From Escherichia phage vB_EcoM_ULIM3, in the sequence record OQ850289: a stretch of DNA of 64,000 nucleotides; one strand, written 5' to 3'. Positions 18,842-29,960 of this stretch are shown here, piece after piece. How positions within the stretch are numbered: position 1 is the stretch's first letter; the number at the start of each line of letters is the position of its first letter. Under the pieces are notes generated by a model. The model was not told where the DNA came from and did not search any database. It was given only the letters and a program-made list of their open reading frames with translations. The position numbers and the translations under genes were made by a program.

Positions 18842-19415
18842 AAAAGGTCTAGTTAGAACCTTAGTGGATGTTATTGGTCACAGATTAGCTCGTGATAAAA
18901 ATAATAGACCAAACGTAATTAGAGCTTACCCTTCTGATAACTCAAATGACAAAGGTTTAAAACCTGACCAGCCATTTATTACCGTATATTGTCAAGATGC
19001 TGCAACACCTTATGGTTGGGTTCTTGATAAGTTTGTTGAAGATGATGTAGTTTGTTACAGAATCGCTTTTCAGATTCCTGTATTGATTACGGTAAATGGT
19101 AAAGGTGCTCACAGTATTATGCTTGAGCTTAAACAAAGATTAGAGATGAGTTCAGTCAGAGGTTTAATCCTTGAAGAAACAGGAGCTACAGTATTAGACA
19201 CTGGAGCAATCCCTAACGATTACACTTATCTCAATACAGATTTCGAAAATTCTGCGCCTCTTGTTGTAACTCTTGTAAAAAACTCAGTCCTGAAAGATGA
19301 ACGTGGAAGTATTATTGAGCGTGTCATTGTTGATGGTGAGTTGGTTTATGAAGAAGGGCAAGAGCCACCAGAATATACTATCCATCTAGATGTAGACTCC
19401 AAAGGGGTAAAATAA
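18816..19415 (+). CDS. structural protein (putative)
   Basis: 199-aa ORF preceding sheath gene. Confidence 0.4.
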   Translation: MQLETAELEKGLVRTLVDVIGHRLARDKNNRPNVIRAYPSDNSNDKGLKPDQPFITVYCQDAATPYGWVLDKFVEDDVVCYRIAFQIPVLITVNGKGAHSIMLELKQRLEMSSVRGLILEETGATVLDTGAIPNDYTYLNTDFENSAPLVVTLVKNSVLKDERGSIIERVIVDGELVYEEGQEPPEYTIHLDVDSKGVK

Positions 19416-20768
19416 ATGTGGAATCCAATTGTTAATGTAGATATTACATTGAACACCGCAGGAACTACAAGAGAAGGTTTTGGTTTGCCACTATTCTTAG
19501 CTTCAACAGATAACTTTGAAGAAAGAGTGCGTGGTTATACTTCCTTAACTGAAGTTGCTGAAGATTTCGATGAGAATACTGCTGCATATAAGGCTGCTAA
19601 ACAACTTTGGAGTCAGACTCCTAAAGTAACTCAGCTTTATATTGGTAGACGCGCTATGCAGTACACTGTATCAATTCCTGATGAGGTTACTGAGAGCACG
19701 GACTACTCAATTACTGTAGCTGTCGGTGGGGGAATGTCACAACCATTCCAGTACACCTCACAAGGTGAAGATACTGCCGAGAATGTATTACAACAGTTTA
19801 AAACACAGATTGAAGCTGACCAATCAATTAAAGATAAAGTTTCAGTCAATGTTACTGGTAGCAACGGTTCTGCCACAATGGTCATCTCCAAAGCTGGTGA
19901 CAATGATTTCGTGAAGGTAACCACTACAGCACAAACTGTGTCTATTGCAAGCACAACTGCTGATACAGCGTCAACTGCTCTGGCAGCTATTGAAGCTTAT
20001 TCTACCGACTGGTATTTCATTGCAGCAGAAGACAGAACTCAACAGTTTGTCTTAGCAATGGCTTCTGAGATTCAGGCTCGTAAGAAAATCTTCTTCACAG
20101 CTAACTCTGATGTAGCAGCACTACAAGGTACAGAATTAAACAGTGCAAATGATGTTCCAGCACAGCTTGCTAAGAGTATGTATACTCGCACAGTTTGCTT
20201 GTGGCATCACACAGCGGCAGAAGATTATCCAGAGATGGCATATATTGCTTATGGTGCTCCATACGATGCAGGGTCAATTGCTTGGGGTAATGCTCAGTTG
20301 ACTGGTGTAGCTGCTTCTTTACAGCCAGCTAATAAGAGACCTCTGACAAGCATTCAGAAGTCAGCTTTAGATGTACGTCACTGTAACTTTATCGACCTTG
20401 ATGGTGGTGTTCCAGTGGTTCGTAGAGGGATTACTTCTGGTGGGGAATGGATTGATATCGTCCGTGGTGTTGACTGGTTAGAATCAGACCTGAAAACTTC
20501 TCTGAGAGACTTGCTAATTAACCAGAAGGGTGGTAAGATTACTTATGATGATACTGGTATTACCCGTATTCGTCAAGTCATTGAAACCTCTCTACAAAGA
20601 GCAGTCAACAGAAACTTCCTGTCATCTTACACAGTTAATGTTCCTAAAGCCTCTCAAGTTGCTTTGGCAGACAAGAAAGCTCGTATCCTGAAAGATGTTA
20701 CCTTCGCAGGTATCTTAGCAGGGGCTATCTTGGATGTTGACTTGAAAGGTACAGTGGCTTACGAATAA
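19416..20768 (+). CDS. tail sheath protein (putative)
   Basis: 450 aa immediately upstream of tube-sized gene, chaperone pair and tape measure. Confidence 0.55.
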   Translation: MWNPIVNVDITLNTAGTTREGFGLPLFLASTDNFEERVRGYTSLTEVAEDFDENTAAYKAAKQLWSQTPKVTQLYIGRRAMQYTVSIPDEVTESTDYSITVAVGGGMSQPFQYTSQGEDTAENVLQQFKTQIEADQSIKDKVSVNVTGSNGSATMVISKAGDNDFVKVTTTAQTVSIASTTADTASTALAAIEAYSTDWYFIAAEDRTQQFVLAMASEIQARKKIFFTANSDVAALQGTELNSANDVPAQLAKSMYTRTVCLWHHTAAEDYPEMAYIAYGAPYDAGSIAWGNAQLTGVAASLQPANKRPLTSIQKSALDVRHCNFIDLDGGVPVVRRGITSGGEWIDIVRGVDWLESDLKTSLRDLLINQKGGKITYDDTGITRIRQVIETSLQRAVNRNFLSSYTVNVPKASQVALADKKARILKDVTFAGILAGAILDVDLKGTVAYE

Positions 20769-20783
20769 TAGAGGTAAATTGGA

Positions 20784-21230
20784 ATGGCTATGTATCAGCA
20801 ATATTCCCCTAAAGACGTTGTATGTAGCTGGAATGGTATTGCCATTGAAGGCTTTGCCCCAGACTCATTTTTACGTCTACAGAGAACATCACCACTTATC
20901 ACACCAGTTGTAGGTGCAGGTGGTCAGGTTGCTCTGACAAGAAATGCAGACAAGACAGGTACTATTGAGATTGAGCTAATGCAGACTTCTCTCTCTAACC
21001 AGATGCTTTCTGCAATTCAAGCTAAACAAGACAACATGGAACTTGAAGAAGATATCTCTTCTAACTTCGTAATCTACGACCCATCAGGCTCTGTTCTGGC
21101 AACTGGTATTAATGCTTGGTTGCAGGAATTACCACAGATTGAACTTGGGCGTGACCAGAACTCTAAAACTTGGATTTTTGGTTGTGAGAAGCTAGACTAC
21201 ACTTCTACAATTCCAGCGTCAAGTGTTTAA
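20784..21230 (+). CDS. tail tube protein (putative)
   Basis: 148 aa; followed by strong terminator. Confidence 0.55.
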   Translation: MAMYQQYSPKDVVCSWNGIAIEGFAPDSFLRLQRTSPLITPVVGAGGQVALTRNADKTGTIEIELMQTSLSNQMLSAIQAKQDNMELEEDISSNFVIYDPSGSVLATGINAWLQELPQIELGRDQNSKTWIFGCEKLDYTSTIPASSV

Positions 21231-21242
21231 TAAATCCTATAA

Positions 21243-21276
21243 GGGGGAGACTTTAAAAGGTCTTCCCCTTTTTTGT
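21243..21276 (+). terminator. intrinsic terminator after tail tube gene
   Basis: gggggagac...gtcttcccc stem followed by TTTTTTG. Confidence 0.7.
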
Positions 21277-21303
21277 TTCTTTTAAAAGTATTAAGGAATC
21301 ACA

Positions 21304-21702
21304 ATGAAAACAGAATCTAAAGTAATTAATGGTAAGAAAGTAAATATCGTTCTGCTTGGGGCAAGAGATGGGATTAAGATGTCTATGAAGCTGGGTAAAA
21401 TTGTTGTTCCAACATTTGCACAGATGCTATCAAGTCTGACTGATAAAGATAAGAAAGAAGCTCCAATGGTTCCATTTAAAGACCTTGTTGAAGCTTGTTT
21501 TGACAGAATTGAAGAAATTAACCTTGAAGAAATGGCTACCCTGTTATTTCAAGGGGCAACTGTTGATGACTTCCCACTCAATATTGATACATACTTCCAA
21601 GCAAACTACGGTGAGTTTATTGATTACTTAGCATTTGCGCTGGAGGCAAACTTCGGAAGTTTTTTCGAAGCAAGCATTTTCAAAAGCCTAACTTCTCAGT
21701 AA
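21304..21702 (+). CDS. tail assembly chaperone
   Basis: 132 aa directly upstream of tape measure; slippery T_TTT_TTC at 21660-21666. Confidence 0.55.
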   Translation: MKTESKVINGKKVNIVLLGARDGIKMSMKLGKIVVPTFAQMLSSLTDKDKKEAPMVPFKDLVEACFDRIEEINLEEMATLLFQGATVDDFPLNIDTYFQANYGEFIDYLAFALEANFGSFFEASIFKSLTSQ

Positions 21703-21704
21703 AC

Positions 21705-21943
21705 ATGGGTAATACTCTACAGACACCACTAACTGATGCTGCTGTAGAGGCAACCTATGAAGAAGCAGACGAGATGAAATTTGTGCTTGCTATTTATGGT
21801 ATGGAAGGGTGTAAAGAAACACTTGACCAACTCTTTGCTATGACATTCTCTGATTTATTATCATTGAGACAATTTCTTGAAATTCAGAGGTCGTATAAAG
21901 AGGAAATTGCTTACAACGAACTTAGAAGAGCAGGAAAAATGTA

Positions 21944-21944
<1 letters not shown>
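21705..21944 (+). CDS. tail assembly chaperone extension (likely made as -1 frameshift fusion)
   Basis: ORF in -1 frame relative to 21304-21702, open from 21660 through 21941. Confidence 0.5.

Positions 21945-29960
<8,016 letters not shown>

What the first reader, a model, noticed from the sequence alone, without database searches (positions are those of the whole stretch)
21658..21705. Programmed -1 ribosomal frameshift in the tail assembly chaperone pair
The 0-frame codons AGT TTT TTC (21658-21666) contain the slippery heptamer T_TTT_TTC 36 nt before the stop of 21304-21702; the -1 frame is open from 21660 through the downstream ORF 21705-21944, giving a fusion product. This is the conserved G/GT-type chaperone frameshift upstream of tape-measure genes.
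Basis: partly seen in the sequence, partly recalled or inferred. Interest (0 to 1): 0.35.

Follow-up and report, generated by a model that had tools for sequence, protein, structure and literature searches.

The report
Tail chaperone frameshift in Felix-O1-like phage
The window comes from a Felix O1-like coliphage, and the flagged spot is the well-known "slippery" site where some ribosomes slip back one base to make a longer tail-assembly chaperone; it is real and strongly conserved, but already annotated in sister phages.

Summary
Observation confirmed. The window is a Felixounavirus, 100% identical to Escherichia phage vB_EcoM_ULIM8. Gene order is sheath, tube, chaperone ORF1 (21304-21702; Pfam Phage_TAC_15), ORF2 (21705-21944) and tape measure (21944-24172).

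ORF2 lies in the -1 frame, which is open from 21624. The heptamer T_TTT_TTC (21660-21666) sits in the right register (AGT TTT TTC).

One genome alone is weak evidence: about 0.09 such heptamers are expected by chance in the 26-codon overlap. Comparison settles it:
- The heptamer is invariant in 45 distinct sequence contexts from 15 lineages, down to 28% protein identity.
- The preceding Ser codon is AGT or TCT, always ending in T.
- Between genera, blastn detects only the roughly 40 nt around the site.
- The -1 extension is always 79-106 aa, has a conserved core and ends at the tape-measure start.
- Several relatives have no usable start codon for it.
- ATG 21705 has no Shine-Dalgarno sequence.

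No conserved 3' stimulatory RNA structure was found.

Interpretation supported: a lambda G/GT-type -1 frameshift giving a 213-aa fusion. It is already known: Salmonella phage Mushroom carries the same joined CDS, and the Moogle and Michonne genome papers state it. It has not been shown experimentally in this genus. Interest is low.

The parts
21304..21702 (+). Tail assembly chaperone ORF1 (132 aa), the 0-frame 'G-like' product
   Evidence: Pfam PF21822 Phage_TAC_15 E=1.2e-19, 71.6 bits against a cut-off of 22. phrog_1613 'tail assembly chaperone' 7.5e-49. Shine-Dalgarno AAGGA upstream, -6.1 kcal/mol.
21660..21666 (+). Slippery heptamer T_TTT_TTC (0-frame codons TTT 21661-63 in the P site and TTC 21664-66 in the A site)
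   Evidence: Sequence read directly. Invariant in all 45 distinct contexts except the T7 variant of phage CL1. U_UU.U_UU.C is among the efficient -1 motifs measured in E. coli (PMC4066793).
21666..21944 (+). -1 frame extension ('T-like' part): 92 codons from CGA 21666-21668 to stop TAA 21942-21944. It includes the mechanically called ORF2, 21705-21944.
   Evidence: phrog_4963 'tail assembly chaperone' 2.8e-55 for ORF2. The extension is 79-106 aa with a conserved core (IY..CKE.L..L..M.F.DLL.L) in 15 lineages and always ends at the tape-measure start. ATG 21705 has no Shine-Dalgarno sequence (+0.7 kcal/mol against a median of -5.8).
21624..21702 (+). Overlap window in which a -1 shift from ORF1 can enter the open -1 frame (26 codons)
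   Evidence: Last -1 frame stop is TGA 21621-21623. In relatives L024 and L026 this window opens only 7 nt before the AGT codon.
21642..21646 (+). GGAGG, a Shine-Dalgarno-like sequence 13 nt upstream of the heptamer; a possible lineage-specific stimulator (inference only)
   Evidence: Read. Present in the Felixounavirus, Moogle and Arno18 lineages but replaced by AGAAG or GAAAA in Kolesnikvirus and L032, so it is not a conserved part of the signal.
21944..24172 (+). Tail tape measure protein gene (742 aa); its ATG overlaps the stop of the -1 extension (TAATG)
   Evidence: Pfam TMP_3 2.3e-17. phrog_4036, E reported as 0.
20784..21230 (+). Tail tube gene (148 aa), presumed binding partner of the T-like domain
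   Evidence: Pfam KPP10_Orf10 3.6e-7 and phrog_280 9e-48. It lies directly after the sheath gene 19416-20768 (phrog_205, 4.5e-123).
21241..21280 (+). Intrinsic-terminator-like hairpin with T tract between the tube gene and ORF1
   Evidence: 13-bp stem, 6 GC pairs, TTTTGTTTCT tail. A 'terminator' feature is annotated under the match in ASO1A, ASO1B and KhF3 records.

Best explanation
This is a programmed -1 ribosomal frameshift in the tail assembly chaperone gene of a Felix O1-like myovirus.

Most ribosomes translate ORF1 (21304-21702) to its stop and make a 132-aa chaperone. A minority slip back one base. This happens with tRNA-Phe on TTT in the P site and tRNA-Phe on TTC in the A site of T_TTT_TTC (21660-21666). 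Both tRNAs re-pair on TTT/TTT, and translation continues in the -1 frame from CGA (21666) to TAA (21942-21944). The result is a 213-aa fusion that shares the first 121 residues with the short protein.

By analogy with lambda gpG/gpGT, the shared N-terminal part would coat the tape measure protein. The -1-encoded C-terminal domain would recruit the tube protein, and neither product would stay in the virion.

Shown here: gene identities, frame geometry, heptamer register, synonymous-site conservation, coding conservation of the -1 extension, and absence of an independent start signal.

Inferred: that slippage actually occurs, its efficiency, and the binding partners.
For: Gene context is sheath, tube, TAC, short ORF and TMP, with Pfam and PHROG support. 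Frame and register were verified.

Conservation of the site:
- The heptamer is identical in 45 distinct contexts from 15 lineages down to 28% identity. The Ser codon before it is AGT or TCT, always ending in T. The Phe codon two codons upstream varies between TTC and TTT.
- Among 29 invariant, degenerate amino-acid columns in 8 lineages, only 5 have an invariant codon, and 4 of those are at S-F-F-(E)-A of the slip site. Fisher p=0.001.
- Against Erwinia phages (41-47% protein identity), blastn matches only query positions 346-386, i.e. window 21649-21689.

The -1 extension:
- It is 79-106 aa in every lineage, has a conserved core and always ends at the TMP start.
- In L033, L070 and L081 the first possible start codon in that frame is at extension codon 55, 61 and 80, inside or beyond the conserved core.
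- L015, a 98% identical Felixounavirus, has ATA instead of the ORF2 ATG.
- ATG 21705 has no Shine-Dalgarno pairing: +0.7 kcal/mol, poorer pairing than at 88% of random positions, against a neighbour median of -5.8.

Outside support:
- U_UU.U_UU.C is an efficient -1 motif in E. coli and shifts above 0.1% without a stimulator (PMC4066793).
- Curators annotated the same joined CDS in phages Mushroom and Moogle, and the frameshift is stated in print for Moogle and Michonne (PMC4319497, PMC4591319).
- The G/GT mechanism is described in PMC5009743.
Against: There is no experimental evidence for the fusion protein in any Felixounavirus in the literature searched.

No conserved 3' stimulatory structure lies at the usual 5-9 nt spacing. 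The first stable hairpin starts 38 nt downstream, and the alifold consensus is about -1 to -3 kcal/mol with no compensatory pairs.

The upstream GGAGG is not conserved.

In this genome alone a chance heptamer in the overlap has a probability of about 9%.

Part of the nucleotide conservation just 3' of the site could come from dual coding rather than from an RNA signal.
Confidence: 0.9

Rival explanations
1. Transcriptional slippage rather than ribosomal slippage. RNA polymerase occasionally adds one extra U while copying the T6 run (21660-21665). The resulting mRNA encodes exactly the same 213-aa fusion (AGU UUU UUU CGA...).
For: The site is a homopolymeric T6 run. A genomic T7 variant (phage CL1) encodes the identical fusion in one ORF, which shows that a one-base insertion gives the same product. 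The protein sequence cannot tell the two mechanisms apart.
Against: Known productive slippage sites use longer runs, about 8-9 or more A/T (own knowledge; the review PMC5009743 covers these).

The run is exactly six T followed by an invariant C in every lineage, and the preceding Ser codon is always T-ending. This is the pattern expected for an X_XXY_YYZ heptamer in a fixed register.

U_UU.U_UU.C has been measured as a ribosomal -1 motif in E. coli.
Confidence: 0.05
2. Two ordinary, independently translated genes. ORF2 starts at ATG 21705, possibly by re-initiation after the ORF1 stop 3 nt upstream, and the heptamer is incidental.
For: ORF2 has an ATG 2 nt after the ORF1 stop codon, an arrangement that can allow termination-reinitiation. 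Most GenBank records, including FelixO1 RefSeq and the window's own record, annotate two separate CDS.
Against: There is no Shine-Dalgarno sequence before 21705.

The ATG is absent in L015 (ATA), L026, Moogle, L032, Kolesnikvirus and the distant lineages, where the first start codon can fall beyond the conserved core.

The -1 frame peptide upstream of that ATG (RSKHFQKP) is conserved.

The heptamer shows synonymous-site invariance that protein coding alone does not explain.
Confidence: 0.04
3. Chance heptamer next to a non-functional or degenerate downstream ORF.
For: The expected number of in-frame heptamers in the overlap is 0.09, which is not negligible for one genome.
Against: The heptamer and the -1 open frame are conserved across 15 lineages down to 28% identity, and the extension has a conserved protein core. 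ORF2 matches phrog_4963 at 2.8e-55.
Confidence: 0.01

Closest known systems
Annotated tape-measure-chaperone frameshift of Felix O1-like phages Mushroom (KP143762), Moogle (NC_027293) and Michonne (KT001916)
   Same: Same genes and same slip sequence. The joined CDS of Mushroom spans the exact equivalent of window 21304-21944. The Moogle joined CDS of 638 nt fits the 212-aa fusion predicted here. The frameshift is stated in PMC4319497 and PMC4591319.
   Different: Nothing of substance. The window's own GenBank record (ULIM8), FelixO1 RefSeq and most other records simply do not annotate the join.
Bacteriophage lambda gpG/gpGT -1 frameshift (Levin et al. 1993; Xu, Hendrix and Duda 2004, 2013, 2014; reviewed in PMC5009743)
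   Same: Two overlapping ORFs immediately upstream of the tape measure gene. An X_XXY_YYZ heptamer near the end of the first ORF. A fusion that shares the N-terminal chaperone part. The downstream ORF has no start signal of its own.
   Different: Lambda is a siphovirus and uses G_GGA_AAG; here the phage is a myovirus using T_TTT_TTC. No sequence similarity to gpG or gpT was detected; the only Pfam family above its cut-off is Phage_TAC_15. Efficiency and binding partners are untested here.
Myovirus P2 E/E+E' (T_TTT_TTG) and Mu gp41/gp42 chaperone frameshifts (Xu et al. 2004; own knowledge)
   Same: Contractile-tail phages with gene order sheath, tube, chaperone pair and tape measure. A -1 shift on a T-rich heptamer.
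   Different: The last base of the heptamer differs (C versus G in P2). The protein family is different. P2's efficiency is reported as 2-3 fold higher than lambda's (PMC5009743); here it is unknown.

Membership tests
Conserved tail-assembly-chaperone -1 programmed frameshift (lambda G/GT type, Xu et al. 2004) | Two overlapping ORFs located between the major tail (tube) gene and the tape measure gene | tested here: met
   Tube 20784-21230, ORF1 21304-21702, ORF2 21705-21944, TMP 21944-24172. Identities come from Pfam and PHROGs.
Conserved tail-assembly-chaperone -1 programmed frameshift (lambda G/GT type, Xu et al. 2004) | The downstream ORF is in the -1 frame and that frame is open across the end of the upstream ORF | tested here: met
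   The -1 frame is open from 21624 to 21944. The same holds in all 15 lineages examined.
Conserved tail-assembly-chaperone -1 programmed frameshift (lambda G/GT type, Xu et al. 2004) | Canonical slippery heptamer X_XXY_YYZ in the 0-frame register within the overlap | tested here: met
   T_TTT_TTC at 21660-21666 with codons TTT and TTC in frame. The motif is efficient in E. coli (PMC4066793).
Conserved tail-assembly-chaperone -1 programmed frameshift (lambda G/GT type, Xu et al. 2004) | Slip site and two-frame architecture conserved in divergent relatives beyond what protein coding requires | tested here: met
   Invariant in 45 contexts. The Ser codon is AGT or TCT only. A control Phe codon varies. 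Codon-invariance enrichment has p=0.001. Across genera blastn finds only the slip-site region.
Conserved tail-assembly-chaperone -1 programmed frameshift (lambda G/GT type, Xu et al. 2004) | The downstream ORF lacks its own translation initiation signal | tested here: met
   No Shine-Dalgarno sequence before ATG 21705. The start codon is absent or far downstream in relatives.
Conserved tail-assembly-chaperone -1 programmed frameshift (lambda G/GT type, Xu et al. 2004) | Both a short and a frameshift-extended protein are made, at a fixed low ratio, and both are needed for tail assembly | not testable with these tools
   This needs proteomics, a reporter assay or genetics. No such data for Felixounavirus were found in the paper library.
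Conserved tail-assembly-chaperone -1 programmed frameshift (lambda G/GT type, Xu et al. 2004) | Sequence homology to lambda gpG/gpT (not required by the Xu et al. definition, which is positional) | tested here: not met
   hmmscan against Pfam at E<=0.1 gives only Phage_TAC_15 above its cut-off for ORF1, and nothing for ORF2. There is no PDB relative. The system is therefore an analogue by position and mechanism, not a detectable homologue.
Pfam PF21822 Phage_TAC_15 | Score above the curated gathering threshold over most of the model | tested here: met
   71.6 bits against a cut-off of 22; residues 9-124 match model positions 1-124 of 127.
Transcriptional (RNA polymerase) slippage sites | Long homopolymeric A or T run, typically 8-9 nt or more, whose length rather than codon register is conserved | tested here: not met
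   The run is exactly T6 followed by an invariant C, in a fixed codon register, in all lineages. The length criterion is from own knowledge. The mechanism is not excluded experimentally.
Stimulator-dependent -1 PRF (dnaX or IS3 type) | Conserved 3' hairpin or pseudoknot 5-9 nt after the heptamer, and/or a conserved Shine-Dalgarno-like element 10-14 nt upstream | tested here: not met
   There is no conserved 3' structure. GGAGG lies 13 nt upstream in this genome but is lost in Kolesnikvirus and L032.

The most novel reading that the evidence does not exclude
The most novel reading not excluded concerns the stimulator. The only universally conserved nucleotides are AAG/TCT-TTTTTC-GA. No 3' structure or upstream Shine-Dalgarno-like element is conserved. 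The most conserved peptide of the whole protein (AFALEANFGSFFE) sits exactly where the nascent chain would occupy the exit tunnel and peptidyl-transferase centre during the slip. The shift might therefore be tuned by the nascent peptide or by the codon context (GAR in frame 0, the rare CGA in frame -1) rather than by an RNA structure. A second possibility is that part of the fusion arises from transcriptional slippage on T6.
Probability: 0.1. Interest if true: 0.4.

Novelty: already known. Interest (0 to 1): 0.1.

Why it matters
The main value is for annotation. The window's own GenBank record labels both ORFs 'hypothetical protein', and most Felixounavirus records, including the FelixO1 RefSeq, list two separate chaperone CDS. 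The biologically meaningful products are a 132-aa protein and a 213-aa frameshift fusion.

The comparative data give unusually clean synonymous-site evidence for the slip site across a wide clade. They could serve as a benchmark case for frameshift predictors. They do not change any concept of phage tail assembly or of recoding.

Tried and rejected
3' stimulatory structure:
- Folding 21667-21760 gives a hairpin at 21704-21759 (-24.5 kcal/mol, z=-3.1). It starts 38 nt after the heptamer, too far away, and is not conserved in Kolesnikvirus or L032.
- Folding 21630-21730 is no better than shuffled sequence (z=+0.39).
- RNAalifold on 8 and on 17 sequences gives about -3 and -1.3 kcal/mol with no compensatory pairs.

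Other signals and databases:
- Rfam has nothing relevant.
- The upstream GGAGG is present here but not conserved.
- The terminator scan flags a weak hairpin at 21640-21656 followed by the T run. The count is at chance level (2 found against 1.3 expected) and the site lies inside a conserved coding region, so I rejected it as a terminator.
- There is no PDB sequence relative.
- The second shifty tetramer T_TTC at 21678-21681 is conserved only in some lineages, so I rejected it as the main site.

Searches not made, as unnecessary for a known feature: the large protein-database searches and structure prediction.

The literature search for experimental proof in Felixounavirus found none.

Full report
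**What the window is.** Megablast of 19400-24200 against the phage collection gives a 100% identical, full-length match to Escherichia phage vB_EcoM_ULIM8 (OQ850290). About 250 further Felix O1-like phages (Ounavirinae, Felixounavirus) cover at least 80% of the query.

**Gene context.** The local gene order was established with Pfam and PHROGs.
- Tail sheath: 19416-20768 (phrog_205, 4.5e-123).
- Tail tube: 20784-21230 (phrog_280; Pfam KPP10_Orf10).
- ORF1: 21304-21702 (Pfam PF21822 Phage_TAC_15, 71.6 bits against a cut-off of 22; phrog_1613 'tail assembly chaperone').
- ORF2: 21705-21944 (phrog_4963 'tail assembly chaperone', 2.8e-55; no Pfam hit).
- Tape measure protein: 21944-24172 (Pfam TMP_3; phrog_4036).
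- A strong terminator-like hairpin at 21241-21280 separates the tube gene from ORF1.

**Checking the observation.** The sequence reads ...TTC GGA AGT TTT TTC GAA GCA... in the ORF1 frame. T_TTT_TTC at 21660-21666 is therefore an X_XXY_YYZ heptamer in the correct register. ORF2 is in the -1 frame relative to ORF1. That frame is open from 21624, after TGA 21621-23, to TAA 21942-44. The heptamer ends 33 nt before the ORF1 stop codon. A -1 slip would give a 213-aa protein with the junction ...ANFGSFF|RSKHFQKPNFSVNMGNT.... The only correction is that the -1 frame opens 36 nt earlier than stated.

**Is it more than chance?** Within this genome alone, only weakly. Among 85 long ORFs there are 67 in-frame X_XXY_YYZ heptamers in 18,971 codon positions. 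About 0.09 are thus expected in the 26-codon overlap. Only two of the 67 lead into a -1 frame of 90 or more codons. The other one, A_AAG_GGG at 24954, is simply the Shine-Dalgarno sequence of the next gene, which starts in an ATGA overlap. The decisive evidence is comparative.

**Comparative evidence for the slip site.** I collected 84 related loci from IMG/VR and GenBank. They reduce to 45 distinct sequence contexts and about 15 lineages:
- Felixounavirus, the SUSP-like group, Mooglevirus, Kolesnikvirus (Erwinia) and Pectobacterium phage Arno18;
- several metagenomic lineages with only 28-50% protein identity to ORF1.

All 84 loci have TTTTTTC at the homologous S-F-F codons, in the same register, except phage CL1, which has T7. 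The codon pattern is telling.
- The Ser codon is AGT in most lineages and TCT in two. These are different codon families, but both end in T.
- The two slip-site Phe codons are always TTT then TTC.
- The Phe two codons upstream varies freely between TTC and TTT, and the following Glu between GAA and GAG.

In an 8-lineage codon alignment, 29 amino-acid columns are invariant and degenerate. Only 5 of them have an invariant codon, and 4 of those are at the slip site (Fisher p=0.001). At the nucleotide level, blastn between this phage and the Erwinia phages (41-47% protein identity) detects nothing except query positions 346-386, i.e. window 21649-21689.

**Evidence that the -1 frame is coding and depends on the shift.**
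- In all 15 lineages the -1 extension is 79-106 codons long, ends at or just before the tape-measure start, and has a conserved core (IY..CKE.L..L..M.F.DLL.L).
- The stretch between the slip site and the Felixounavirus ATG (RSKHFQKP...) is conserved as protein in the -1 frame.
- The ATG at 21705 is not conserved. It is ATA in a 98% identical Felixounavirus (L015) and TTA in the L026 and Moogle lineages.
- In Kolesnikvirus, L070 and L081 the first possible start codon in that frame is at extension codon 55, 61 and 80. That is inside or past the conserved core.
- In the window, ATG 21705 has no Shine-Dalgarno complementarity. The duplex energy with the 16S 3' end is +0.7 kcal/mol, poorer pairing than at 88% of random positions. 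The neighbouring structural genes have a median of -5.8, and ORF1 has -6.1.

**Mechanism.** The best-supported model is a tandem -1 slip of two tRNA-Phe on U_UUU_UUC. Sharma et al. (PMC4066793) measured all heptamers in E. coli. They place H_HH.U_UU.Y among the most efficient motifs. They list U_UU.U_UU.C among motifs that shift above 0.1% without any stimulator, and they find it in IS elements.

I found no conserved stimulator.
- The only stable downstream hairpin (21704-21759, z=-3.1) begins 38 nt after the heptamer and is not conserved beyond the Felixounavirus and Moogle lineages.
- Consensus folding gives no covarying pairs.
- A GGAGG 13 nt upstream, at 21642-21646, has dnaX-like spacing (own knowledge). 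It is lost in Kolesnikvirus and L032.

A low, unstimulated frameshift rate is what the lambda paradigm leads one to expect. There gpG and gpGT are made at about 30:1. The G part binds the tape measure protein and the T part binds the tail tube protein. Neither ends up in the virion (PMC5009743). Assigning these roles to the present proteins is inference by position. ORF1 belongs to Phage_TAC_15 and has no detectable similarity to lambda gpG or to any PDB entry.

**Rival explanations.**
- Independent translation of ORF2 is contradicted by the missing Shine-Dalgarno sequence, the non-conserved start codon and the synonymous constraint on the heptamer.
- Transcriptional slippage on T6 would give the identical fusion protein, so it cannot be excluded from sequence. 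However, the run is short, has exactly the same length everywhere, is followed by an invariant C and is held in a fixed codon register. All of this points to a ribosomal heptamer.
- Pure chance is excluded by the conservation.

**What is already known.** The feature is already in the databases and the literature. Salmonella phage Mushroom (Felixounavirus mushroom, KP143762) carries a two-piece joined 'tape measure chaperone' CDS that spans exactly the equivalent of 21304-21944. Citrobacter phage Moogle has the same. The Moogle and Michonne genome announcements state that the tape-measure chaperone uses a -1 translational frameshift, citing Xu, Hendrix and Duda 2004 (PMC4319497 and PMC4591319). 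Most other records, including FelixO1 RefSeq, VpaE1 RefSeq and the window's own record (both ORFs 'hypothetical protein'), list two separate CDS. I found no experimental demonstration in this genus.

**Verdict.** Novelty: already known. Interest is low. The practical consequence is an annotation correction, and the case is a clean comparative example of synonymous constraint at a slip site.

Noticed in passing
L035 (Escherichia phage CL1, OK040806.1) 955-964; equivalent to window 21658-21666: CL1 has seven T instead of six at the slip site. This fuses the two ORFs into one 213-aa 'tape measure chaperone' CDS identical to the predicted frameshift product. It is the only one of 317 phage records with a one-piece match, and the only one of 254 that matches the T7 query at 100%. 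It is probably a homopolymer sequencing error. If real, the phage would make only the fusion.
   Followed up: partly
window 21704-21759: A hairpin (-24.5 kcal/mol for the 94-nt fold, z=-3.1) sequesters the ORF2 ATG at 21705. In the SUSP-like and Moogle lineages the inner stem is CCCCA/UGGGG or CCCCG/CGGGG, an apparent compensatory change. It is absent in Kolesnikvirus. It lies too far from the heptamer to be a classical stimulator, and its function, if any, is unknown.
   Followed up: partly
window 21241-21280: A strong intrinsic-terminator-like hairpin (13-bp stem plus T tract) lies between the tube gene and the chaperone gene. It suggests attenuation of transcription after the abundant sheath and tube genes. 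'Terminator' features are annotated under the match in the ASO1A, ASO1B and KhF3 records.
   Followed up: partly
L003 (LR597658.1, VpaE1_ev108); also LR699048.1: Product names in these records appear offset from the genes. The tape measure gene is labelled 'Tail sheath protein', the sheath 'Ad1 adapter protein' and the chaperone 'Hc1 head closure protein'. This looks like an annotation error.
   Followed up: no
window 24954-24960: An in-frame A_AAG_GGG heptamer lies 6 nt before the stop of ORF 24172-24969 and opens a 116-codon -1 frame (ORF 24969-25310). It is best explained as the Shine-Dalgarno sequence (AAAGGGG, -7.8 kcal/mol) of the next gene, which starts in an ATGA overlap, and not as a frameshift site.
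   Followed up: partly
window 10337-10343: An in-frame T_TTT_TTA heptamer lies 15 nt before the stop of the small ORF 10134-10361 (mechanical GTG start) and has a 41-codon -1 extension. Neither its conservation nor the gene's identity was examined.
   Followed up: no
L015 (IMGVR_UViG_3300045988_004167), position equivalent to window 21705-21707: A 98% identical Felixounavirus has ATA in place of the ORF2 ATG. This shows that the start codon is dispensable even within the genus.
   Followed up: yes
GenBank MG065664.1 (Campylobacter phage A132, 70.7 kb) and one 'Staphylococcus' record: Records named for Campylobacter and Staphylococcus hosts carry this Felixounavirus chaperone region, about 95% identical at the protein level for A132. 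This suggests mislabelled or contaminated records.
   Followed up: no
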